Assembly: GCF_055900595.2 (NCBI RefSeq)
Contig: NZ_CM148325.1
Strand: one strand, 5' to 3'
Length of the DNA stretch: 64,000 nt
The notes beneath the pieces were generated by a model, which was not told the origin of the DNA, ran no database searches, and was given only the letters and a program-made list of their open reading frames with translations. Made by a program: the position numbers and the translations under genes. Positions 7,220 through 23,791 of this stretch are shown in pieces (the first letter of the stretch is position 1; each line of letters starts with the position of its first letter).

Positions 7220-7978
7220 ATGCATTACCAGCCAAAACAAGATTTACTCAATGATCGCATTATCCTGGTGACGGGAGCCAGCAATGGTATTGGTCGTGAA
7301 GCCGCGATGACGTATGCACGCTATGGTGCGACAGTGATTCTGTTGGGCCGTAATGAAGAAAAATTACGTCAGGTAGCCAGCCACATAAACGAAGAAACTG
7401 GGCGTCAGCCACAGTGGTTTATTCTCGATTTGCTGACCTGCACGTCCGAAGATTGCCAACAACTGGCACAGCGCATTGCCGTTAATTATCCGCGTCTGGA
7501 TGGTGTTTTGCATAATGCCGGATTGCTCGGCGATGTTTGCCCAATGAGCGAACAAAATCCGCAGGTCTGGCAGGACGTCATGCAGGTCAACGTTAATGCC
7601 ACCTTTATGCTCACCCAGGCACTGCTTCCTTTATTACTCAAATCGGACGCCGGTTCACTGGTCTTTACTTCATCAAGCGTTGGACGTCAGGGGCGTGCAA
7701 ACTGGGGCGCTTATGCAGCGTCGAAATTTGCCACCGAAGGGATGATGCAGGTACTGGCCGATGAATATCAGCAGCGCCTGCGCGTCAACTGCATTAACCC
7801 AGGTGGTACGCGCACCGCAATGCGCGCAAGCGCCTTCCCGACCGAAGATCCACAGAAACTTAAAACACCCGCTGATATCATGCCGCTCTACCTCTGGCTG
7901 ATGGGCGATGACAGCCGCCGTAAAACCGGCATGACCTTTGACGCCCAACCGGGCCGTAAACCAGGAATATCCCAATGA
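7220..7978 (+). CDS. yciK: Short-chain dehydrogenase/reductase YciK
   Basis: 252-aa ORF; Rossmann motif VTGASNGIGRE; catalytic YAASK motif; stop overlaps btuR start (ATGA). Confidence 0.9.
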   Translation: MHYQPKQDLLNDRIILVTGASNGIGREAAMTYARYGATVILLGRNEEKLRQVASHINEETGRQPQWFILDLLTCTSEDCQQLAQRIAVNYPRLDGVLHNAGLLGDVCPMSEQNPQVWQDVMQVNVNATFMLTQALLPLLLKSDAGSLVFTSSSVGRQGRANWGAYAASKFATEGMMQVLADEYQQRLRVNCINPGGTRTAMRASAFPTEDPQKLKTPADIMPLYLWLMGDDSRRKTGMTFDAQPGRKPGISQ

Positions 7979-8565
7979 GTGATGAACGCTACCAACAGCG
8001 TCAGCAGCGTGTAAAAGATAAAGTGGATGCCCGTGTGGCCCAGGCCCAGGATGAACGCGGTATTATCATCGTCTTTACCGGCAATGGAAAAGGCAAAACC
8101 ACCGCAGCATTTGGTACGGCAACACGCGCAGTTGGTCACGGAAAAAAAGTGGGCGTCGTGCAGTTTATTAAAGGCACCTGGCCTAATGGCGAACGAAATC
8201 TGCTGGAACCACACGGCGTTGAATTTCAGGTGATGGCAACGGGCTTTACCTGGGATACGCAAAACCGCGAATCTGATACCGCGGCCTGCCGTGAAGTCTG
8301 GCAACATGCCAAACGAATGCTGGCCGATCCTTCACTGGATATGGTTTTGCTCGATGAGCTGACTTATATGGTGGCGTATGACTATTTGCCACTGGAAGAA
8401 GTGGTGCAGGCGTTAAATGAACGTCCACATCAACAGACGGTGATTATCACGGGTCGTGGTTGTCATCGGGATATTCTTGAACTGGCGGATACGGTAAGTG
8501 AATTACGCCCCGTCAAACATGCGTTTGATGCCGGTGTTAAGGCGCAAATCGGGATTGATTATTAA
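7975..8565 (+). CDS. btuR: Cob(I)yrinic acid a,c-diamide adenosyltransferase
   Basis: 196-aa ORF with P-loop GNGKGKTTAAFG; translationally coupled to yciK. Confidence 0.9.
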   Translation: MSDERYQQRQQRVKDKVDARVAQAQDERGIIIVFTGNGKGKTTAAFGTATRAVGHGKKVGVVQFIKGTWPNGERNLLEPHGVEFQVMATGFTWDTQNRESDTAACREVWQHAKRMLADPSLDMVLLDELTYMVAYDYLPLEEVVQALNERPHQQTVIITGRGCHRDILELADTVSELRPVKHAFDAGVKAQIGIDY

Positions 8566-8570
8566 GGGAA

Positions 8571-8608
8571 AGCACCTCAAAAGTTCGCCTCTTGAGGTGC
8601 TAATTTTA
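8571..8608 (+). terminator. Intrinsic terminator downstream of btuR
   Basis: 10-bp perfect stem AGCACCTCAA/TTGAGGTGCT immediately followed by AATTTTA. Confidence 0.5.
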
Positions 8609-8621
8609 GATACTGAATGGC

Positions 8622-8930
8622 TTAATTAGCCACGGCAAAATTAAGAAGAGCTTGAATTTTATTCAAGTGTGCGGGATATTCCATGTCATTATCCGCATTG
8701 ACGTCTTCAATAAACAGTATTAATTCAGTGATCAAATCATTAGCATCTTCATAACTAATACCAGTCAGTTCTGGTGACGTTTGCGAGCCATAATTAATTG
8801 TCAGATTATTCATTACCGACAAAACCAGAATAAAATATTTGTGACATATATCGCAAGTTGTTCGGTTTCCTAAGGCATAGTACAGCATATTGAGCAATGC
8901 CAGTATTCGTCGATTTTGCACATCGTTCAT
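8622..8930 (-). CDS. Hypothetical protein, 102 aa (AT-rich islet, gene 3)
   Basis: ORF track; AT-rich codon usage unlike the flanking core genes; no recognisable domain. Confidence 0.5.
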   Translation of the reverse strand: MNDVQNRRILALLNMLYYALGNRTTCDICHKYFILVLSVMNNLTINYGSQTSPELTGISYEDANDLITELILFIEDVNADNDMEYPAHLNKIQALLNFAVAN

Positions 8931-8939
8931 AATGACCTC

Positions 8940-9296
8940 CTATAACATAACTCCGCTGGCAATAAGAAGTTTTGCCAGCTCCTCTGACGCCTGTAGACCA
9001 CTAATAAATTGAGAACGCAGGATCTCATTCCTACGCTCTAAATCCGCTTTAGAAAGAGATTTATTAGAGTATAAATCTTGTAGATGATTTCCTTTATCCA
9101 TGAAGGCATTAATAGCTTGTATTGCTGGAGCCGCCGGATCAGATGAACGCAATCTGCTTTCATTAAGATTAATTACTGCACTCAAAAATTCCTGTCTACT
9201 CTTTAATGTTTTAAATTCTATGTTTTTAGTATTTGCTCGGGCCTTATTATAGTAATAAAAATTATTGCTGATGTTCGCAAAATTATTCCAATCCAT
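8940..9296 (-). CDS. Hypothetical protein, 118 aa (AT-rich islet, gene 2)
   Basis: ORF track; tightly spaced with the neighbouring islet ORFs on the same strand; Asn/Lys-rich. Confidence 0.5.
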   Translation of the reverse strand: MDWNNFANISNNFYYYNKARANTKNIEFKTLKSRQEFLSAVINLNESRLRSSDPAAPAIQAINAFMDKGNHLQDLYSNKSLSKADLERRNEILRSQFISGLQASEELAKLLIASGVML

Positions 9297-9313
9297 TTGC
9301 TGCTGTTTCGTTG

Positions 9314-9961
9314 CTATATCATCGAGTAAATCTTGTAAATTTCTTTGAAGTCGTGGCCAGTACTACCTACCGTTTTACCAACATTTTCTGATTTAATCTT
9401 CTCTTTATATAATCCATTGAAATATTGAACTAAATCTTTAACAGCTACAGCTGACTTAGTCAGTTCTTCACCTTCTGAAAGGCCAAGTAGTTTTTGGGCG
9501 TTGTTTGCATGATCGAGCGCCTGATTAAGTAATATAATTTGTTTACTATCGTCAACATCCATATCCACCGTCAACAACTCCACATAGGAGCTCATACTGT
9601 TAACGACCTCAAGTGAAGCCAGTAGCTTTTGTTTTTCTGTGGTTGCCAATTGAACTTTAGTAACGTCTTTATACGATGTTTTGTCCCCTTTCTCTGATTG
9701 CATACATAAGGACTCTTTATTAGTATTATTTTCCATAATCGTTTCATAATCAGGTCGCAATGCACAATCCGGATTAGCCGCATAAAAATTAACAAGGAAG
9801 TTTTCACGAGAAGCATAGTATTGTTTAAAGAAACTTGCATTCGCCGCAACCGCCTTGTTACCCGCAGTAATAACAGTTTCAGCTTGTTCATTTTTCAATG
9901 TTTCAGTTGCACAACCTGAAAGCATTAACAGCGATAGAAATAATCCACTATATCTAATCAT
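9314..9961 (-). CDS. Putative lipoprotein, 215 aa (AT-rich islet, gene 1)
   Basis: N-terminal signal peptide with lipobox LLMLSGC; largely helical, Lys/Glu-rich mature region. Confidence 0.55.
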   Translation of the reverse strand: MIRYSGLFLSLLMLSGCATETLKNEQAETVITAGNKAVAANASFFKQYYASRENFLVNFYAANPDCALRPDYETIMENNTNKESLCMQSEKGDKTSYKDVTKVQLATTEKQKLLASLEVVNSMSSYVELLTVDMDVDDSKQIILLNQALDHANNAQKLLGLSEGEELTKSAVAVKDLVQYFNGLYKEKIKSENVGKTVGSTGHDFKEIYKIYSMI

Positions 9962-10090
9962 AACCCACCTCTTGACGTTGAGTTTATCTCAGATAATTAA
10001 ATAGTAATGTGGCTATTCCCTGGCATTATTCATAAGCAAGTATGAAATTAAATTAAAATACTGCGACTATTTATCATGCTTCAAATGAAG

Positions 10091-10115
10091 AAAAGGCCCC
10101 GCAGGGCCTTTATTT
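10091..10115 (-). terminator. Intrinsic terminator downstream of rluB
   Basis: GC hairpin AAGGCCCCGCAGGGCCTT followed by a T-run on the minus strand. Confidence 0.45.
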
Positions 10116-10130
10116 AATACTTAACTTAAA

Positions 10131-11006
10131 TTAACCGTTATTATTACGTCCACCAGAACGACGACCGCCGCTGACCTGGCTGTGACGTTTCACCGCACGA
10201 CGAATTTGATTCGCCTTCATACGACGACGGTCTTTTTCTACAGCAACTTTAGAGCTGGTTTCTGGCGGTAGTTCCACCAGCTCACGCAGATAGTTAGTCT
10301 GGGCAAGATCCAGCTCAGTCCAGCCACCGCGTGGCAGACCTTTCGGCAGTGGGATATCACCGTAACGCACGCGGATCAGACGGCTCACCTGCACACCAAC
10401 AGCTTCCCAAAGACGACGAACTTCACGGTTACGGCCTTCGGTCAGAGTAACGTTGTACCACTGGTTGATCCCTTCGCCGCCGCTGAACTTAATGGTTTTA
10501 AAGGCTGCCGGACCATCTTCCAGCTGCACGCCACGACTCAAATCACGCAGTTTCGCGTCGTCAACCTGACCAAATACACGCACGGCATATTCACGTTCAA
10601 CTTCACGGCTTGGGTGCATTAAACGGTTTGCCAGCTCACCGTCGGTGGTGAACAGCAGCAGACCACAGGTGTTAACGTCCAGACGACCTACGGCAATCCA
10701 GCGTGCGCCACGCAGCTTTGGCAGACGGTCAAATACCGTTGGACGCCCTTCCGGATCGTTACGGGTACACAACTCACCTTCCGGTTTGTAATAGGCCAGA
10801 ACGCGACAAATTTGTTCAGCGGACTCACGTACCGAAATCAGGTGACCATCGATACGGATTTTCAATCCAGGGGTAATTTCAACACGATCGCCGAGTTTAG
10901 CAATTTTGCCATCAACACTCACACGACCGGCTTCAATAATAGATTCGATTTCACGGCGAGAACCGTGGCCGGCACGCGCCAGCACTTTCTGTAGCTTTTC
11001 GCTCAT
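10131..11006 (-). CDS. rluB: 23S rRNA pseudouridine synthase RluB
   Basis: 291-aa ORF; S4 domain N-terminus ([21 protein letters not shown]), pseudouridine synthase core ([17 protein letters not shown]), basic RG-rich tail. Confidence 0.95.
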
Positions 11007-11218: not shown

Positions 11219-13113
11219 TTACCAGCCACCACCGCCTCCGCCACCCGCACCGCCGCCAGCACCACCACCGGAATAGCTTCGCCCCAACAAACTGGTATTG
11301 GCCCCCAGACTCAGGTGCATCTGTAATGAAAACAAAACGCCACTACGGGCAATTTCCGGGGCGTGAACAGCCGCTGTGAGTGACGGCGTGATACGTGCTG
11401 CCCATTCTTTTCCAAGGTTTGCCGAGACTGCCCAACCTAGCAACGCGTAATCCAGTTTCCGTGTTTCCCCTTTCCGCCGACGCCCACTGTGTGTTGCTGC
11501 CTCTTTACGCGCAAGATAGTTAACGATAGCTTCACCGTGGGCATAACGTTGCTGCCCAGTTTGGGTAAACTTTGGCAGAAAAATATACCCCATGCCAGTG
11601 AGATAACCGGTCAGGAAAACAGCGCTAAAATAACCCGCAGGCATATACCAGTAAAAGAATACATCTCCGACATTGATGTAGAGAGAGTAAAAAGCCACAC
11701 CTGAACAAATCAGTGGTAAAAACAAAGTGATGATTACACGATTAACGCAAGGCTTGTCATCATCGCGTGCAAACAAAAGATCAAGGGAACAAAATAAAAA
11801 AGGAAGAAGCCAGCAGATCATAATAAACATATCGCCTACCAGACTCATTCCTGCCCAGCCTACGGGACTCAGGTTACCGTAGAGAATGACCGCCAATATT
11901 GCCATTCCGCCCCATTGCAAAAACGCATCAGGTCGGTAAAACGAAGACTTTTTACGCGGCAGATAAAATTTCTGCATCCGTAAAAATGCCCTGCGTAAGA
12001 CTCTGTTACGCCCCCCGTAAGAACGACCTTGTCGCCTTTACGAAATAACGTTTCCAGTAATATCTGCTCTGCGGGCAGTAATACCGCATTATTCCTGGTC
12101 GCACCTTCATTAACACGGATCAGGGTTTGCTGATTTTTGTCATACTGATCTTCCAGATGAATTTTTCCTTTCACAATCAGATTTACGATATCGGCACAAA
12201 AACCTTTATCGTCGTAAACCAGCTTCGCATCGAGACGTAACATTCCGGGCGTGTAATCTGGCGGAATGACATCGGTTTCAATCACATCTACCGGCGTAAA
12301 TTGCGGCCTGCGCTTCCAGAGATATAACCATCCACACGCCAGGAACAGACACGGAAACCAAATTAACAACGATGACGTAGAGGGTAAAAGAAGATGGCTG
12401 AAAATATTCGTCGTTTGTGGTGCCGGGGCATTACCAAGTAAAGCGTGAGGCCAGCGGTAGAGGACCGTGAAATCTTCACGATAAAACGGATCGCGGGATT
12501 CAATTCTTCCGTCCTCAAGGATGCGGCCATTTCGATATGTGTCGCCCTCTTCTCCGGTAAAGAGATCGATTTCGCTAAATGGATTACCCGCAATTTTAGA
12601 GAACTGGAGAGAAAATCGGGTCTTATAAATTTCAAACGGCCAGTTGTTACCGGTCACGTTCCAGATTAGCAGATCAGAATCCCCCTCACGCAGGAAAGCA
12701 TTTTTAACCTGATAATGAATTTGATAATGATAGTCGCCCTGAGGCAAGAAACGTTGTTTATCGCCCACGACAATGCTCATTAACCCGATATGCCAGTCAA
12801 GATGCCAGGGTTCAGGAACGCCGTCACGGGTGACGCCAACAATACGATAGTTCAGCACTGCTGCGTCCCCATCAGGCTGCATCCAGAGTCGTGGTAAATC
12901 ACGATAAAATCCGTGCTTAATCTGCTGATTTCGCGCCTGAAAATGAATGTTCTCTTTGATGTCGAGCACCCCATCCAGTTGCAGGGTGGCTTCAACATCA
13001 AAGAGCGAGATCCCTTCTTCATAAAAAGGGATCTCCGTGTTTTTCGCATAACTCAACGAAGAGAAAAAAAGCCCAACTATCAACAGCAAAATGCAGCGAA
13101 ACTTCCCTGCCAT
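11219..13113 (-). pseudogene. yciQ: yciQ (DUF2207 membrane protein) split by a frameshift into a 414-aa N-terminal ORF (11869..13113) and a 252-aa C-terminal ORF (11219..11977)
   Basis: Two overlapping minus-strand ORFs in different frames that together approximate the ~631-aa K-12 YciQ; signal peptide at the N-terminus, glycine-rich C-terminal tail; frame change lies within 11869-11977. Confidence 0.6.
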
Positions 13114-14911: not shown

Positions 14912-16474
14912 ATGCAAACACAAAAACCGACTCTCGAACTGTTAACCTGCGAAGGTGCTTATCGCGATAATCCGACCGCGCTTTTTCATCAGTTGTGTGG
15001 GGATCGTCCGGCAACGCTGCTGCTGGAATCCGCAGATATCGACAGCAAGGATGATTTAAAAAGCCTGCTGCTGGTGGACAGTGCGCTGCGCATTACAGCA
15101 TTAGGTGACACTGTCACTATTCAGGCACTTTCCGGCAATGGCGAAGCTCTGCTGGCATTACTGGATAACGCCCTGCCTGCGGGTGTGGAAAATGAACAAT
15201 CACCAAACTGCCGCGTGCTGCGCTTCCCTCCTGTCAGTCCATTGCTGGATGAAGACGCCCGCTTATGCTCCCTTTCGGTTTTTGACGCTTTCCGCTTATT
15301 GCAGAATCTGTTGAATGTACCGAAGGAAGAACGGGAAGCGATGTTCTTTGGCGGCCTGTTCTCTTATGACCTTGTGGCGGGGTTTGAAGATTTACCGCAA
15401 CTGGCAGCGGAAAATAACTGCCCTGATTTCTGTTTTTATCTCGCTGAAACGCTGATGGTTATCGATCATCAGAAAAAAAGTACCCGTATTCAGGCCAGCC
15501 TGTTTGGTCAAAATGAAGAAGAAAAACAACGTCTCACTGCTCGCCTGAACGAACTTCGCCAGCAACTGACCGAAACCGCGCCACCGCTGCCGGTAGTTTC
15601 CGTGCCGCATATGCATTGTGAATGTAATCAGAGCGATGAAGAGTTCGGTGGCGTAGTGCGTTCGTTGCAAAAAGCGATTCGCGCCGGAGAAATTTTCCAG
15701 GTCGTGCCATCTCGCCGTTTCTCGCTGCCCTGCCCGTCACCGCTGGCGGCCTATTACGTGCTGAAAAAGAGTAATCCCAGCCCATACATGTTTTTTATGC
15801 AGGATAATGATTTCACCCTGTTTGGTGCGTCGCCGGAAAGTTCGCTCAAGTATGACGCCACCAGCCGCCAGATTGAGATCTACCCGATTGCCGGAACACG
15901 TCCACGAGGACGTCGCGCCGATGGTTCACTGGACAAAGACCTCGACAGCCGCATTGAACTGGAGATGCGTACCGACCATAAAGAGCTTTCTGAACATCTG
16001 ATGCTGGTGGATCTCGCCCGAAATGACCTTGCGCGCATTTGCACTCCTGGCAGCCGCTACGTTGCCGATCTGACCAAAGTTGACCGTTACTCTTACGTGA
16101 TGCATCTCGTCTCCCGCGTGGTCGGTGAGCTGCGCCACGATCTTGACGCCCTGCACGCTTACCGCGCCTGTATGAACATGGGTACGTTAAGCGGTGCCCC
16201 GAAAGTGCGCGCCATGCAGTTAATTGCCGAAGCGGAAGGTCGTCGACGCGGCAGCTACGGCGGTGCGGTAGGTTATTTCACCGCACATGGCGATCTGGAC
16301 ACCTGCATTGTCATCCGTTCGGCGCTGGTGGAAAACGGTATCGCCACCGTGCAAGCCGGTGCTGGCGTAGTCCTTGATTCTGTTCCGCAGTCGGAAGCCG
16401 ACGAAACCCGTAATAAAGCCCGCGCTGTACTGCGCGCTATCGCCACCGCGCATCATGCACAGGAGACTTTCTGA
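14912..16474 (+). CDS. trpE: Anthranilate synthase component I
   Basis: 520-aa [31 protein letters not shown]; stop overlaps trpD start. Confidence 0.96.
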
Positions 16475-18069
16475 TGGCTGACATTCTGCTGCTCGATAAT
16501 ATCGACTCTTTTACTTATAACCTGGCAGATCAGTTGCGCAGCAATGGACATAACGTGGTGATTTACCGCAACCATATCCCAGCGCAAACATTAATTGAAC
16601 GTCTGGCGACCATGAGCAATCCGGTGCTGATGCTTTCTCCTGGCCCCGGAGTGCCGAGCGAAGCCGGTTGTATGCCGGAACTCCTCACCCGCTTGCGCGG
16701 CAAGCTGCCAATTATCGGCATTTGCCTCGGTCATCAGGCGATTGTCGAAGCTTACGGGGGCTATGTCGGTCAGGCGGGCGAAATTCTTCACGGTAAAGCG
16801 TCGAGCATTGAACATGATGGTCAGGCGATGTTTGCCGGATTAACAAACCCGCTGCCAGTGGCGCGTTATCACTCGCTGGTTGGCAGTAATATTCCGGCCG
16901 GTTTAACCATCAACGCCCATTTTAATGGCATGGTGATGGCGGTGCGTCATGATGCGGATCGCGTTTGTGGATTCCAGTTCCATCCGGAATCCATTCTCAC
17001 CACCCAGGGCGCTCGCCTGCTGGAACAAACGCTGGCCTGGGCACAACAGAAGCTGGAGCCGACCAACACACTGCAACCAATTCTGGAAAAACTGTATCAG
17101 GCGCAGACGCTTAGCCAACAAGAAAGCCACCAGCTGTTTTCAGCGGTGGTGCGTGGCGAGCTGAAACCGGAACAACTGGCGGCTGCATTGGTCAGCATGA
17201 AAATTCGCGGCGAGCACCCGAACGAAATCGCCGGGGCAGCAACTGCCCTTCTGGAAAATGCTGCGCCGTTCCCACGCCCTGATTATCTGTTTGCCGATAT
17301 CGTCGGCACCGGCGGTGACGGCAGCAACAGTATCAATATTTCTACCGCCAGTGCGTTTGTCGCCGCTGCCTGTGGGCTGAAAGTGGCGAAACACGGTAAC
17401 CGCAGCGTCTCCAGTAAATCCGGCTCGTCGGATCTGCTGGCGGCATTCGGTATTAATCTTGATATGAACGCCGATAAATCGCGCCAGGCGCTGGATGAGT
17501 TAGGCGTCTGTTTCCTCTTTGCGCCGAAATATCACACCGGATTTCGCCATGCGATGCCGGTTCGCCAGCAACTGAAAACCCGCACCCTGTTCAACGTGCT
17601 GGGGCCACTGATTAACCCGGCGCATCCGCCGCTGGCGCTAATTGGTGTCTACAGCCCGGAACTGGTGCTGCCAATTGCCGAAACCTTGCGCGTGCTGGGG
17701 TATCAACGCGCAGCGGTGGTGCACAGCGGGGGGATGGATGAAGTTTCATTACACGCGCCGACAATCGTTGCCGAACTGCATGACGGCGAAATTAAGAGCT
17801 ATCAGTTGACCGCTGAAGATTTTGGCCTGACACCCTACCATCAGGAGCAACTGGCAGGCGGAACACCGGAAGAAAACCGTGACATTTTAACACGCTTGTT
17901 ACAAGGTAAAGGCGACGCAGCCCATGAAGCAGCTGTCGCGGCGAATGTCGCCATGTTAATGCGCCTGCATGGCCAGGAAGATCTGCAAACCAATGCGCAA
18001 ACCGTTCTTGAGGTACTGCGCAGTGGTTCCGCTTACGACAGAGTCACCGCACTGGCGGCACGAGGGTAA
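16474..18069 (+). CDS. trpD: Bifunctional anthranilate synthase component II / anthranilate phosphoribosyltransferase
   Basis: 531-aa [25 protein letters not shown]; glutamine amidotransferase N-domain plus PRT C-domain. Confidence 0.96.
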
Positions 18070-19431
18070 ATGATGCAAACCGTTTTAGCGAAAATCGTCG
18101 CAGACAAGGCGATTTGGGTAGAAGCCCGCAAACAGCAGCAACCGCTGGCCAGTTTTCAGAATAAGGTTCAGCCGAGCACGCGACATTTTTATGATGCGCT
18201 ACAGGGTGCACGCACGGCGTTTATTCTGGAGTGCAAGAAAGCGTCGCCGTCAAAAGGCGTGATACGTGATGATTTCGATCCGGCACGCATTGCCGCCATT
18301 TATAAGCATTACGCTTCGGCAATTTCTGTACTGACTGATGAGAAATATTTCCAGGGGAGCTTTGATTTCCTCCCCATCGTCAGCCAAATCGCCCCGCAAC
18401 CGATTTTATGTAAAGACTTTATTATCGACCCTTACCAGATCTATCTGGCGCGCTATTACCAGGCCGATGCCTGTTTATTAATGCTGTCGGTGCTGGACGA
18501 CGATCAGTATCGCCAGCTCGCTGCTGTAGCCCACAGTCTGGAGATGGGCGTGCTGACCGAAGTCAGTAATGAAGAGGAGCTGGAGCGCGCCATTGCATTG
18601 GGAGCAAAAGTCGTTGGCATTAACAACCGCGATCTGCGTGATTTGTCGATTGATCTTAACCGTACCCGCGAGCTTGCGCCGAAACTGGGGCACAACGTGA
18701 CGGTAATCAGCGAATCCGGCATCAATACTTACGCCCAGGTGCGTGAGTTAAGCCACTTCGCTAACGGCTTTCTGATTGGTTCGGCGCTAATGGCCCATGA
18801 TGATTTGAACGCCGCCGTGCGCCGGGTGTTGCTGGGTGAGAATAAAGTGTGTGGTCTGACGCGTGGGCAAGATGCTAAAGCAACTCATGACGCGGGCGCG
18901 ATTTACGGTGGATTGATATTTGTTACAACGTCACCCCGTTGCGTCAGCGTTGAACAGGCGCAGGAAGTGATGGCTGCGGCACCGTTGCAATACGTTGGCG
19001 TGTTCCGCAATCACGATATTGCCGATGTGGTGGACAAAGCTAAGGTGTTATCGCTGGCGGCAGTGCAACTGCATGGTAATGAAGATCAGCTGTATATCGA
19101 CACTCTGCGTGAGGCTCTGCCAGCAAACGTCGCCATCTGGAAGGCTTTAAGTGTCGGTGAAACTCTTCCCGCGCGCGATTTTCAGCACATCGATAAATAT
19201 GTATTCGACAACGGTCAGGGCGGGAGCGGACAACGTTTCGACTGGTCACTGTTAAACGGTCAATCGCTTGGCAACGTTCTGCTGGCGGGTGGCTTAGGCG
19301 CAGATAACTGCGTGGAAGCGGCACAAACCGGCTGCGCCGGGCTTGATTTTAATTCTGCTGTAGAGTCGCAACCGGGCATCAAAGACGCACGTCTTTTGGC
19401 CTCGGTTTTCCAGACGCTGCGCGCATATTAA
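18070..19431 (+). CDS. trpC: Bifunctional indole-3-glycerol-phosphate synthase / phosphoribosylanthranilate isomerase
   Basis: 453-aa [32 protein letters not shown]. Confidence 0.95.
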
Positions 19432-19442
19432 GGAAAGGAACA

Positions 19443-20636
19443 ATGACAACATTACTTAACCCGTATTTTGGTGAGTTTGGCGGCATGTACGTGCCACAAA
19501 TCCTGATGCCTGCTCTGCGCCAGCTGGAAGAAGCTTTTGTCAGCGCGCAAAAAGATCCTGAATTTCAGGCCCAGTTCAACGACCTGCTGAAAAACTATGC
19601 CGGGCGCCCAACCGCGCTGACCAAATGTCAGAACATTACAGCCGGCACTAACACTACGCTGTATCTGAAGCGTGAAGATTTACTGCACGGTGGCGCGCAT
19701 AAAACTAACCAGGTGCTCGGTCAAGCTTTACTGGCGAAGCGGATGGGTAAAACTGAAATCATTGCCGAAACCGGTGCAGGTCAGCATGGCGTGGCTTCTG
19801 CGCTTGCCAGCGCCCTGCTCGGCCTGAAATGCCGTATTTATATGGGTGCCAAAGACGTTGAACGCCAGTCGCCTAACGTTTTTCGTATGCGCTTGATGGG
19901 TGCGGAAGTGATCCCGGTGCATAGCGGTTCCGCGACGCTGAAAGATGCCTGTAACGAGGCGCTACGCGACTGGTCCGGCAGTTATGAAACCGCGCACTAT
20001 ATGCTGGGCACTGCAGCTGGCCCGCATCCTTACCCGACCATTGTGCGTGAGTTTCAGCGGATGATTGGCGAAGAAACGAAAGCGCAGATTCTGGAAAGAG
20101 AAGGTCGTCTGCCGGATGCCGTTATTGCTTGTGTTGGCGGCGGTTCGAATGCCATCGGCATGTTTGCTGATTTCATCAACGAAACCGACGTCGGGCTGAT
20201 CGGCGTGGAGCCTGGTGGTCACGGTATCGAAACTGGCGAGCACGGCGCACCGTTAAAACATGGTCGCGTGGGCATCTATTTCGGTATGAAAGCGCCAATG
20301 ATGCAAACCGAAGACGGGCAGATTGAAGAATCTTACTCGATTTCTGCCGGACTGGATTTCCCGTCAGTCGGCCCGCAACACGCTTATCTCAACAGCATTG
20401 GACGCGCTGATTATGTGTCAATCACCGATGATGAAGCTCTGGAAGCCTTCAAAACGCTGTGCCTGCACGAAGGGATTATCCCGGCGCTGGAATCCTCCCA
20501 CGCGCTGGCCCACGCACTGAAAATGATGCGCGAAAACCCGGAAAAAGAGCAGCTACTGGTGGTTAACCTTTCCGGTCGCGGCGATAAAGACATCTTCACC
20601 GTTCACGATATTTTGAAAGCACGAGGGGAAATCTGA
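19443..20636 (+). CDS. trpB: Tryptophan synthase beta subunit
   Basis: 397-aa ORF; PLP-binding region [22 protein letters not shown]. Confidence 0.96.
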
Positions 20637-21442
20637 TGGAACGCTATGAATCTCTGTTTGCCCAACTGAAGGAGCGCAAAGAAGGCGCATTCGTTCCTTT
20701 CGTCACCCTCGGTGATCCGGGCATTGAGCAGTCGCTGAAAATTATCGATACGCTAATTGAAGCCGGTGCTGACGCGCTGGAGTTAGGTATCCCCTTCTCC
20801 GACCCACTGGCAGATGGTCCGACGATTCAAAACGCCACACTGCGTGCTTTTGCGGCGGGAGTAACCCCGGCGCAGTGCTTTGAGATGCTGGCACTCATTC
20901 GCCAGAAGTACCCGACCATTCCGATCGGCCTTTTGATGTATGCCAACCTGGTGTTTAACAAAGGCATTGATGAGTTTTATGCCCAGTGCGAAAAAGTCGG
21001 CGTCGATTCGGTGCTGGTTGCCGATGTGCCCGTGGAAGAGTCTGCGCCCTTCCGCCAGGCCGCGTTGCGCCATAATGTCGCACCTATCTTTATTTGCCCG
21101 CCGAATGCCGACGAGGATTTGCTGCGCCAGATTGCCTCTTATGGCCGTGGTTACACCTATTTATTGTCGCGTGCGGGCGTGACCGGAGCTGAAAACCGCG
21201 CCGCGTTACCTCTCAATCATCTGGTTGCGAAGCTGAAAGAGTACAACGCTGCGCCTCCATTGCAAGGATTTGGTATTTCCGCCCCGGATCAGGTAAAAGC
21301 AGCGATTGATGCAGGAGCTGCGGGCGCGATTTCTGGTTCGGCAATTGTTAAAATCATCGAGCAACATATTAATGAGCCAGAGAAAATGCTGGCGGTACTG
21401 AAAGCTTTTGTACAACCGATGAAAACAGCGACGCGCAGTTAA
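20636..21442 (+). CDS. trpA: Tryptophan synthase alpha subunit
   Basis: 268-aa [32 protein letters not shown]; start overlaps trpB stop. Confidence 0.96.
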
Positions 21443-23320: not shown

Positions 23321-23671
23321 CTGGCAGGTTTTAAAAAATCAAATAAGATATTGTATCTGAAAGAAAAAACAGGATTTTGAGATGCTTTTTTATACCGTTT
23401 TTCAGCGTTTTTAACTGCCTGATTTTATTGAAATCTTTTTTAGTTTTGCAGAAAGGATTTTTTGATCGATTGCTTTAATTTTATACATTCCTGATAACGG
23501 AAATTTTTTACCCGTTGACAGTTTTTATCCTCCGGGGCTATATTTCCAACGCGTCAGCAAAATCTGGCGTCGGGATTGGAACCCCGGATGTTTACGGAGC
23601 GATATGAGACGCGCCCGCGTCTTTTTTCATATCGTTTGCACAGTCACATTCGCGATTTATGGCGGGCTGTG

Positions 23672-23697
23672 TGGGGGAGCCGAAAGGCTCGCCGGTT
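23672..23697 (+). repeat. 26-bp direct repeat copy 1 (TGGGGGAGCCGAAAGGCTCGCCGGTT)
   Basis: Exact 26-bp match to 24412..24437; contains a GAGCC-GAAA-GGCTC tetraloop hairpin. Confidence 0.7.
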
Positions 23698-23791
23698 TCC
23701 GTACCCGGTAGTTCCAACCCCGCACAGTTCGCCACCATGATGATTGGAACCTGAAGGTGGCGATAATTTTCAAATGTACGGAGTTATCGTT

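What the first reader, a model, noticed from the sequence alone, without database searches (positions are those of the whole stretch)
8566..10130. AT-rich three-gene islet inserted in the convergent btuR-rluB intergenic region
Between the btuR terminator and the rluB terminator lies about 1.4 kb of strongly AT-rich DNA carrying three tightly spaced minus-strand ORFs: a 215-aa lipoprotein (lipobox LSGC), a 118-aa protein and a 102-aa protein. None shows a domain I recognise. As I recall the K-12 map, btuR and rluB are adjacent with no genes between them, so this looks like a horizontally acquired accessory operon in a core backbone. Compact lipoprotein-plus-small-partner modules of this kind are typical of toxin/immunity, exclusion or defence functions. 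The 215-aa and 118-aa ORFs are 17 nt apart in different frames and could also be one 333-aa lipoprotein gene split by a frameshift.
Basis: partly seen in the sequence, partly recalled or inferred. Interest (0 to 1): 0.65.

Follow-up and report, generated by a model that had tools for sequence, protein, structure and literature searches.

The report
Broken lipoprotein-plus-partner accessory cassette
Between two core E. coli genes sits a decayed copy of an uncharacterised two-gene cassette, a lipoprotein plus a small helical partner, that about a quarter of E. coli carry; relatives sit beside mobile-element, defence and bacteriocin genes in other bacteria, so it is a candidate, unproven, conflict module.

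Summary
Window 8566-10130 is AT-rich DNA (GC 0.30-0.41, flanks about 0.5) that fills the btuR(cobO)-rluB gap, which is only 39 bp in K-12.

It holds two genes, not three. The 215-aa and 118-aa ORFs are one 340-aa lipoprotein gene broken by a 1-nt deletion at 9361/9362. The 102-aa gene downstream is intact.

The cassette is present in 1234 of 5426 complete E. coli genomes, always at this site. It occupies the same site in E. albertii, E. whittamii and Citrobacter. At least three deeply diverged allele classes exist (dS about 1), and both genes are under purifying selection.

There is no integrase and there are no flanking repeats. This looks like an old polymorphic locus, not a recent insertion.

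A profile search found about 30 remote full-length homologues in Proteobacteria and Chlorobi. All 11 distinct genomic settings examined have a 96-107-aa gene directly downstream. Neighbours include a P2-like prophage moron slot, Hachiman, putAbiC, toxin-antitoxin genes, colicin genes and transposases.

Pfam, NCBIfam, PADLOC, PHROGs and PDB gave no significant match for either protein.

Function is unknown. My best guess, at low confidence, is envelope-level exclusion or defence. In this window the lipoprotein gene is a pseudogene.

The parts
8940..9961 (-). Pseudogene of a 340-aa predicted outer-membrane lipoprotein. It has a signal peptide with lipobox L-S-G-C (Cys17) and the family-invariant residues Cys66, Cys86 and Tyr126.
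   Evidence: Alignment with the intact genes of strains A24 and CT282; family alignment A5.
9314..9961 (-). The 5' ORF of 215 aa: 200 native residues followed by 15 out-of-frame residues (TGHDFKEIYKIYSMI) and a stop.
   Evidence: This exact product is recorded on 186 contigs.
9361..9362 (-). Site of the 1-nt (G) deletion that shifts the frame at codon 201.
   Evidence: alignment column 780.
8940..9296 (-). The 3' ORF of 118 aa, equal to residues 223-340 of the intact lipoprotein in the original frame.
8622..8930 (-). Intact 102-aa partner gene. It has no signal peptide and is predicted to be a four-helix bundle. Cys26, Cys29, His30 and His88 are invariant within the Escherichia/Citrobacter group. 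An AGGAGG Shine-Dalgarno sequence overlaps the lipoprotein stop codon, with 9 nt between the genes.
9962..10091 (-). Non-coding upstream region carrying the lipoprotein Shine-Dalgarno sequence. It is almost identical between allele classes and is the presumed promoter region, but no strong sigma-70 consensus was found.
10092..10111 (-). rluB terminator hairpin (AAAGGCCCTGCGGGGCCTTT followed by a T run).
8571..8601 (.). Inverted repeat acting as a bidirectional terminator hairpin between btuR/cobO and the small gene.
7975..8565 (+). Flank: btuR/cobO, cob(I)yrinic acid a,c-diamide adenosyltransferase.
10131..11006 (-). Flank: rluB, 23S rRNA pseudouridine(2605) synthase.

Best explanation
Shown: window 8566-10130 is a decayed copy of a self-contained two-gene cassette. 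In intact form the cassette encodes a roughly 340-aa all-helical lipoprotein and a roughly 100-aa four-helix-bundle protein without a signal peptide, with the second gene placed to be translationally coupled to the first. The lipoprotein has a lipobox Cys and no Asp at position +2, so it is predicted to be sorted to the outer membrane. It carries a variable loop bounded by two invariant cysteines. The cassette is an old, polymorphic occupant of the rluB-cobO gap in Escherichia and Citrobacter. Remote versions of the same pair occur across Proteobacteria and Chlorobi. In this window a 1-nt deletion has broken the lipoprotein gene, while the partner gene is intact.

Inferred, at low confidence: the cassette is a conflict module acting at the cell envelope. 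The lipoprotein would use its variable disulfide loop to bind or mask something that crosses the outer membrane or periplasm, such as a phage tail or receptor-binding protein, a colicin, or their receptor. This would give exclusion or defence. The cytoplasmic partner would regulate, chaperone or signal for it. In this genome the function would be lost or reduced to a 200-residue lipoprotein stub.
For: Anatomy and frameshift. The frameshifted product is recorded on 186 contigs, and strain E200086 carries the same lesion annotated as a pseudogene, so it is inherited and not a sequencing error.

These are real genes. Between allele classes, lipoprotein dN/dS is 0.25 with dS about 1. The partner has pN 0.15 against pS 0.79.

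Allelic structure. There are three allele classes of 64-66% amino-acid identity that cross species boundaries. Non-synonymous divergence peaks (pN 0.33-0.44) around the Cys66-Cys86 loop, which also carries indels, while codons 1-60 and the upstream region are nearly identical. Loci exposed to antagonists often show this pattern.

The pair is conserved. All 11 distinct genomic settings examined keep a 96-107-aa gene directly after the lipoprotein gene.

Neighbours in remote homologues:
- An AT-rich moron in a P2-like prophage, in the S-V slot where P2 itself carries the nonessential orf30.
- Beside HamA plus helicase (Hachiman) and an integrase in Klebsiella.
- In an island with an integrase, AlpA, putAbiC and HicB in Raoultella.
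- Near VapBC and Fic in Methylomonas.
- Near colicin DNase/immunity genes, TacA and IS3.
- Near a pore-forming colicin and resolvases in Rahnella.

Only Cys17, Cys66, Cys86 and Tyr126 are invariant in the wide family. This argues for a binding or structural protein rather than an enzyme.
Against: No experiment or paper links these proteins to any phenotype.

There is no significant match to PADLOC, PHROGs, Pfam, NCBIfam or PDB sequences.

No relatives were found in 50,697 phage genomes or in IMG/VR, so it is not a typical phage exclusion gene.

Several contexts are ordinary chromosome: E. coli, Citrobacter, Pantoea and Chlorobi. The context evidence is anecdotal, from 11 distinct genomic settings with no statistics.

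The two products are predicted to lie in different compartments, so a direct partnership is unexplained.

Overall dN/dS is well below 1, so positive selection is not demonstrated.

The lipoprotein structure model is unusable (pLDDT 45).

The descriptive part of the statement is near certain. The 0.35 confidence refers to the functional inference.
Confidence: 0.35

Rival explanations
1. Abortive-infection or addiction module. The small four-helix-bundle protein would be a membrane-disrupting executioner, like the MLKL, HeLo or plant CC domains. The lipoprotein would be the envelope sensor or the restraining antidote.
Confidence: 0.12
2. Host-interaction factor: a surface-exposed or envelope lipoprotein that affects serum resistance, adhesion or colonisation, in the manner of the lipoproteins Bor, Iss and TraT. 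The allele classes would reflect antigenic diversification.
For: The cassette is present in extraintestinal lineages such as O25:H4 ST131. It has a variable disulfide-bounded loop and deep allele classes shared across species. One homologue is a prophage moron.
Against: Remote homologues occur in free-living bacteria (Methylomonas, Chlorobiaceae, environmental metagenomes), where host immunity is irrelevant. There is no sequence similarity to Bor, Iss or TraT families in Pfam, NCBIfam or PHROGs. The conserved cytoplasmic partner is unexplained.
Confidence: 0.13
3. An ancestral, dispensable envelope-maintenance gene pair of the Escherichia/Citrobacter lineage that is simply being lost in many lineages, with no conflict role.
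For: The position is the same in E. coli, E. albertii, E. whittamii and Citrobacter. Divergence is roughly graded with host distance: 84-86% to E. albertii and 51-57% to Citrobacter. There are no mobility genes or repeats. Independent inactivations exist: the frameshift plus IS1 in E200086, and probably a frameshift in the E. albertii type strain.
Against: The strong AT bias relative to the host is also seen in the Buttiauxella prophage copy (GC about 0.35 against 0.58). The pair turns up in unrelated mobile contexts in other taxa. Allele classes are shared across species: E. coli allele B is 96% identical to the E. whittamii protein but 64% identical to E. coli allele A. That is not simple vertical descent.
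Confidence: 0.15
4. Spurious ORFs in AT-rich intergenic DNA, with no genes present.
For: None beyond the lack of annotation and of family matches.
Against: Purifying selection with saturated synonymous divergence. Full-length homologues exist across phyla with an invariant lipobox and a conserved cysteine pair. The gene pairing is conserved in all 11 distinct genomic settings examined. The partner gives a confident predicted fold.
Confidence: 0.01

Closest known systems
Lipoproteins of phages and plasmids that exclude incoming phage or DNA at the envelope (T5 Llp, phi80/N15 Cor, F-plasmid TraT, Streptococcus phage TP-J34 Ltp). Named from my own knowledge.
   Same: The large protein is a lipoprotein predicted to sit at the envelope. 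It is encoded in AT-rich accessory DNA. One homologue is a moron inside a P2-like prophage. It is polymorphic in the population.
   Different: There is no sequence similarity in PHROGs, Pfam or NCBIfam. It is much larger than Llp or Cor, which are about 60-80 aa by my recollection. It is always paired with a cytoplasmic partner. It is absent from phage genome collections. No exclusion phenotype has been tested.
Two-gene anti-phage defence systems of defence islands, as catalogued in PADLOC-DB.
   Same: It is a compact, self-contained two-gene cassette with a patchy distribution. Some homologues lie next to Hachiman, putAbiC, toxin-antitoxin genes and integrases.
   Different: No PADLOC model matches either protein, or the remote homologues. 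No enzymatic effector domain is recognisable. In Escherichia it sits in the core backbone, not in a defence island.
Four-helix-bundle cell-death domains (MLKL 4HB, fungal HeLo, plant CC and RPW8).
   Different: The match is no better than to designed helical bundles. Foldseek E-values are not significant. There is no attached sensor, kinase or NLR domain. The N-terminal helix of remote partners is charged.
P2 orf30 and similar nonessential cargo in the S-V slot of P2-like phages.
   Same: The Buttiauxella homologue pair occupies this slot between gpS-like and gpV-like genes and is AT-rich relative to the prophage.
   Different: P2 orf30 is a single gene on the opposite strand. tblastn of the Buttiauxella lipoprotein against the phage collection, which includes P2, found nothing.

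Membership tests
Bacterial lipoproteins (Lgt/LspA substrates) | An N-terminal signal peptide ending in a lipobox [LVI][ASTVI][GAS]C. | tested here: met
   The sequence MIRYSGLFLSLLMLSGC is read directly. The lipobox Cys is invariant in 24 diverse family members. Lipidation itself was not tested.
Bacterial lipoproteins (Lgt/LspA substrates) | Outer-membrane sorting, indicated by no Asp at position +2 (the Lol avoidance rule of Enterobacteriaceae). | tested here: met
   The residue at +2 is Ala in Escherichia and Citrobacter. It is Ala, Thr, Ser or Gly in remote members and never Asp. Localisation is inferred, not measured.
Known anti-phage defence systems (PADLOC-DB v2) | A significant match of at least one component to a system HMM. 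| tested here: not met
   The best hit is TIR-TM at E 0.039 and 11.8 bits for one allele only. Nothing was found for the partner or for remote homologues.
Known anti-phage defence systems (PADLOC-DB v2) | Enrichment next to known defence genes. | tested here: inconclusive
   Hachiman, putAbiC, HicB, VapBC and TacA are neighbours in 4 of 11 contexts. Other contexts are ordinary chromosome. No statistics were possible.
Phage superinfection-exclusion lipoproteins (Llp, Cor, TraT-like) | Homology to a described exclusion protein family. | tested here: not met
   PHROGs, Pfam and NCBIfam gave only weak signal-peptide-level hits (E above 0.01).
Phage superinfection-exclusion lipoproteins (Llp, Cor, TraT-like) | Encoded by phages or prophages. 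| tested here: inconclusive
   One P2-like prophage copy was found. There is no match in the INPHARED phage collection or in IMG/VR.
Phage superinfection-exclusion lipoproteins (Llp, Cor, TraT-like) | Blocks a receptor or DNA entry. | not testable with these tools
   This needs adsorption and plating assays.
Type II toxin-antitoxin modules | A cytoplasmic toxin of a known fold plus a cognate antitoxin, usually with a DNA-binding domain. | tested here: not met
   The large protein is an exported lipoprotein. Neither protein matches a toxin or antitoxin family. The partner survives intact without the lipoprotein in this lineage.
MLKL / HeLo / CC four-helix-bundle executioner domains | Fold similarity that is specific, meaning better than to generic helical bundles. 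| tested here: inconclusive
MLKL / HeLo / CC four-helix-bundle executioner domains | Membrane permeabilisation on activation. | not testable with these tools
   This needs toxicity and membrane-integrity assays.
c-type cytochromes (CXXCH haem attachment) | A CXXCH motif in an exported protein. | tested here: not met
   CDICH or CNVCH is present and invariant in the Escherichia/Citrobacter partners. The protein has no signal peptide. In remote partners only a single Cys following the first helix recurs (Cys26 is the one invariant column in alignment A4; the larger alignment A7 has no invariant column).
Integrase-mobilised genomic islands | An integrase or transposase gene and flanking direct repeats (att sites). 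| tested here: not met
   There is no such ORF in the islet. The only direct repeat is an internal 14-mer, and none are flanking. The junctions fall right at the stop codons of cobO and rluB.

The most novel reading that the evidence does not exclude
The cassette is a previously undescribed kind of envelope-triggered immunity. An outer-membrane lipoprotein with a hypervariable disulfide loop would detect an incoming phage or bacteriocin. A cytoplasmic MLKL/HeLo-like four-helix-bundle partner would execute or relay the response. The allele classes would be kept by balancing selection across Escherichia species.
Probability: 0.08. Interest if true: 0.8.

Novelty: new variant of a known kind. Interest (0 to 1): 0.4.

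Why it matters
About 23% of complete E. coli genomes, including ST131-type O25:H4 strains, carry this gene pair. Public annotation calls both genes 'hypothetical protein'.

This analysis shows that the pair belongs to a family of conserved lipoprotein-plus-partner cassettes that spans phyla. No Pfam, NCBIfam, PADLOC, PHROGs or PDB relative exists. Both genes are under purifying selection. Deep allele classes are shared across species. The family recurs next to mobile, defence and bacteriocin genes.

That makes it a well-defined and cheap-to-test candidate for a new envelope-level exclusion or defence function. K-12 offers a natural empty site for complementation.

For this particular window the practical message is more modest. 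The locus is a pseudogenised copy, and the 'three-gene islet' is two genes.

Tried and rejected
1. Family searches. Pfam, NCBIfam, PADLOC and PHROGs were run on both alleles of both proteins, on remote homologues and on the family alignment. Nothing was significant (49/52, 95, 96).

2. PDB sequence-profile searches with the lipoprotein alignment A5 and the partner alignment A3 gave only chance-level coiled-coil and zinc-finger hits.

3. AlphaFold2 of the lipoprotein with an 11-sequence alignment gave pLDDT 45. The model is all-helical but unusable, so no fold search was run on it.

5. A CXXCH haem or CCHH zinc site in the partner was considered. It was rejected as a family feature because remote partners keep only one Cys. 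A Tat signal (QNRRILAL) was rejected because remote partners have charged N-terminal helices and the model packs this helix into the bundle.

6. A possible relationship between the partner and part of the lipoprotein was tested by hhalign and not found (probability 0.1%).

7. Phage origin was tested by tblastn against 50,697 phage genomes and by three IMG/VR scans. No relatives were found. An IMG/VR scan with the wide alignment A5 failed because it had no conserved stretch to search with.

8. The plasmid hits were mis-assigned chromosomal fragments.

9. Literature searches by accession numbers, gene names and P2 orf30 found no paper on these proteins.

10. Rfam found no RNA family in the islet. 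The promoter scan found no strong sigma-70 site upstream of 9961.
Full report
OBSERVATION. The window holds sohB, yciK and btuR/cobO (7975-8565, plus strand), then rluB (10131-11006, minus strand), then yciQ, as in E. coli. Between the stop codons of cobO and rluB lie 1565 bp with GC 0.30-0.41, against about 0.50-0.57 in the flanks. This stretch carries three minus-strand ORFs of 215, 118 and 102 aa at the stated coordinates. A GC-rich hairpin with a T run follows rluB (10092-10111). A 13-nt inverted repeat (8571-8601) lies between cobO and the 102-aa gene. A K-12 derivative and strain Rb-50 have only 39 bp, with a different hairpin, between cobO and rluB.

TWO GENES, ONE BROKEN. In strains A24 and CT282, RefSeq annotates two CDSs here: 340 or 333 aa, and 102 aa. 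A DNA alignment shows that the window lacks one G (AGTGACTGG becomes AGTACTGG) between positions 9362 and 9361. The 215-aa ORF is therefore residues 1-200 plus 15 out-of-frame residues. The 118-aa ORF is residues 223-340 in the original frame. The exact 215-aa product is on record on 186 contigs, the longest 5.49 Mb, and the 118-aa product on 102 contigs. The closest complete genome, E200086 at 99.9% identity, has the gene annotated as frameshifted and additionally hit by IS1. The lesion is therefore inherited in a lineage and is not a sequencing error. The 102-aa gene is intact. Its AGGAGG Shine-Dalgarno sequence overlaps the lipoprotein stop codon, with a 9-nt spacer, so translational coupling is likely (inference).

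DISTRIBUTION AND HISTORY.
- A sensitive blastn of the islet interior finds it in 1234 of 5426 complete E. coli genomes. There is one chromosomal place in each, apart from one genome with a second place, on a record labelled as a plasmid. In 775 genomes the identity to the window is at least 95%, and in 459 it is 60-80% (diverged alleles).
- The same pair lies between rluB and cobO in E. albertii, E. whittamii, Citrobacter sp. and an unnamed enterobacterial contig.
- Among 100,044 species representatives, only E. albertii and E. whittamii have a close relative.
- Protein identities define at least three allele classes within Escherichia. Class A is E. coli A plus E. albertii (86% identical). 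Class B is E. coli B plus E. whittamii (87-96%). Class C is P0004. The classes are 64-66% identical to each other, and 51-57% identical to Citrobacter.
- Between classes A and B, synonymous sites are saturated (lipoprotein dS about 1; partner pS 0.79). Non-synonymous change is restrained (dN/dS 0.25; partner pN 0.15).
- Codons 1-60 and the upstream 170 bp are almost identical between classes. pN peaks at 0.33-0.44 over codons 61-112.
- There is no integrase and there are no flanking repeats. The junctions sit at the two stop codons.
- I read this as an old polymorphic locus kept at one site, lost in many lineages, and exchanged by recombination through its conserved flanks. It does not look like a recent site-specific insertion. 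cobO next to the islet is also unusually diverged between an allele-A and an allele-B strain (91.7% nucleotide identity, against 98.5% for rluB), which fits such recombination tracts.

THE PROTEINS.
- The large protein starts MIRYSGLFLSLLMLSGC, a signal peptide with a lipobox. Ala at position +2 predicts outer-membrane sorting by the Lol rule (established knowledge; not tested here).
- AlphaFold2 with 11 sequences gave an all-helical but unreliable model (pLDDT 45).
- The small protein has no signal peptide and is confidently predicted as a four-helix bundle (pLDDT 82).
- Within Escherichia and Citrobacter the small protein has invariant Cys26, Cys29, His30 and His88 and a nearly invariant N-terminal helix.
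- Neither protein has a significant match in Pfam, NCBIfam, PADLOC, PHROGs or PDB sequences.

A WIDER FAMILY.
- A profile of the Escherichia/Citrobacter lipoproteins, searched against 1.84 billion representatives, gave 55 hits. About 30 are full-length proteins of 324-357 aa. They come from Buttiauxella, Raoultella, Klebsiella, Rahnella, Pantoea, Methylomonas, Chlorobiaceae and GC-rich metagenomic bacteria.
- All begin with a lipobox. Only Cys17, Cys66, Cys86 and Tyr126 are invariant. I take this to indicate a disulfide-bounded variable loop and no conserved catalytic site (inference).
- All are named 'hypothetical protein' and have no Pfam domain.
- In all 11 distinct genomic settings examined, a 96-107-aa ORF follows within 2-50 nt.
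- These partners are very diverged. A single Cys after the first helix recurs (Cys26 is the only invariant column in the 7-sequence alignment A4; the 12-sequence alignment A7 has no invariant column). Profile-profile comparison with the Escherichia group is weakly positive (E 2.5e-4, probability 43%).
- Neighbourhoods differ each time, so the pair is a self-contained unit:
  - An AT-rich insert (GC about 0.35 against 0.58) between gpS-like and gpV-like genes of a P2-like prophage in Buttiauxella. This is the slot where P2 carries the nonessential orf30.
  - An island with an integrase, AlpA, putAbiC, HicB and DUF3800 in Raoultella.
  - Directly beside HamA plus helicase (Hachiman) and an integrase in Klebsiella variicola.
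  - VapBC, Fic and a Y1 transposase in Methylomonas.
  - Colicin DNase/immunity genes, SRAP, IS3 and TacA.
  - Resolvases, a pore-forming colicin and IS3 in Rahnella.
  - An H-NS gene in Pantoea.
  - Ordinary chromosome in Chlorobi.
- No relative was found in phage genomes or in IMG/VR.

MECHANISM.
What is shown:
- The cassette is conserved and mobile on an evolutionary time scale.
- It consists of a lipoprotein and a small helical partner.
- Both genes are under purifying selection.
- Allelic diversification concentrates around the disulfide loop.
- In this window the lipoprotein gene is inactivated.

What is inferred:
- Such a pattern and such neighbourhoods are most often seen in genes involved in conflict with phages, bacteriocins or other mobile elements.
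- The most economical reading is an envelope-level exclusion or defence function. The lipoprotein would be the contact element and the cytoplasmic protein a regulator, chaperone or relay.
- I put this at about 0.35.

Rivals:
- An abortive-infection or addiction module with the small bundle as membrane effector (0.12). This is weakened by the generic fold match and by the viability of this lineage with the partner alone.
- A host-interaction surface lipoprotein (0.13). This is weakened by homologues in free-living bacteria.
- A dispensable ancestral envelope gene pair undergoing loss (0.15). This is weakened by the mobile contexts elsewhere and by alleles shared across species.
- Spurious ORFs, which is excluded.

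COMPARISON WITH KNOWN SYSTEMS. The cassette works most like, at the level of hypothesis only, the envelope exclusion lipoproteins of phages and plasmids (Llp, Cor, TraT, Ltp; named from my own knowledge) or a compact two-gene defence system. It fails the membership tests for all of them, because it has no homology to any described family. It passes the sequence tests for a bacterial lipoprotein. It is not an integrase-borne island, not a recognisable toxin-antitoxin pair, and not a cytochrome, despite a CXXCH motif in one subgroup.

NOVELTY AND VERDICT. The proteins are in public databases as hypothetical proteins, and no paper in the searched library mentions them. The family, its obligatory pairing, its allele structure and its contexts appear not to have been described. 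This is a well-circumscribed candidate, not a demonstrated new system, and the copy in this window is a pseudogene. Interest is 0.4.

LIMITS.
- The context evidence is anecdotal.
- Localisation, expression and phenotype are untested.

Noticed in passing
window 11219-13113 (minus strand): yciQ (a DUF2207 protein, 631 aa in K-12) is split into overlapping ORFs of 414 aa and 252 aa. It is annotated 'frameshifted' in the closest genome, E200086. This is a second pseudogene within 3 kb of the broken lipoprotein gene, which suggests a lineage that is accumulating gene decay.
   Followed up: partly
window 7975-8565 (btuR/cobO); L002 2569-3159 against L003 2576-3166: cobO next to the islet is only 91.7% identical in DNA between an allele-A strain and an allele-B strain, whereas rluB on the other side is 98.5% identical. 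The 3' end of cobO ranges from 91% to 97% identity to the window across E. coli genomes. The recombination or divergence tract of the islet seems to extend into cobO.
   Followed up: partly
L029 2898-3916 (E. albertii NBRC 107761): The lipoprotein gene of the E. albertii type strain matches in two tblastn segments in different frames (residues 1-242 and 244-340). This is a possible independent frameshift, or a draft-assembly error.
   Followed up: no
L012 4533-4751; L013 315-533; L023 and L024 6434-6652: In the Raoultella/Klebsiella subfamily, a conserved 72-aa ORF without any family match lies about 250-350 bp upstream of the lipoprotein gene. It may be a third component or a regulator in that subgroup. 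E. coli has no counterpart.
   Followed up: partly
hit H68, NZ_CM142805.1 (strain GPEC673): RefSeq names the 102-aa partner 'amino acid kinase family protein' in this genome. The name probably stems from the chance-level arcC similarity also seen here (E 0.13), so it is likely a mis-annotation.
   Followed up: no
window 23551-23739: Rfam finds isrK and C4 antisense RNA side by side just downstream of the trp operon (14912-21442). RNAs of this type are usually carried by prophages, so a prophage or its remnant probably starts near 22 kb.
   Followed up: no
window 61048-61223; 631-833; 57612-57762: Rfam also finds a sok antitoxin RNA (of the hok/sok type), the sRNA STnc180 and two adjacent tRNA genes.
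   Followed up: no
L011 4800-6500 (Buttiauxella agrestis prophage): The homologous gene pair forms an AT-rich insert (GC about 0.35 against about 0.58) between the gpS-like and gpV-like genes of a P2-like prophage. This is the slot that holds the nonessential orf30 in P2 itself, and it may be an under-studied cargo site of P2-like phages.
   Followed up: partly
L022 4297-4698 (Pantoea sp.): An H-NS family gene lies about 1.3 kb upstream of the Pantoea copy of the cassette. This is anecdotal, but the cassette is AT-rich everywhere, so xenogeneic silencing is plausible.
   Followed up: no
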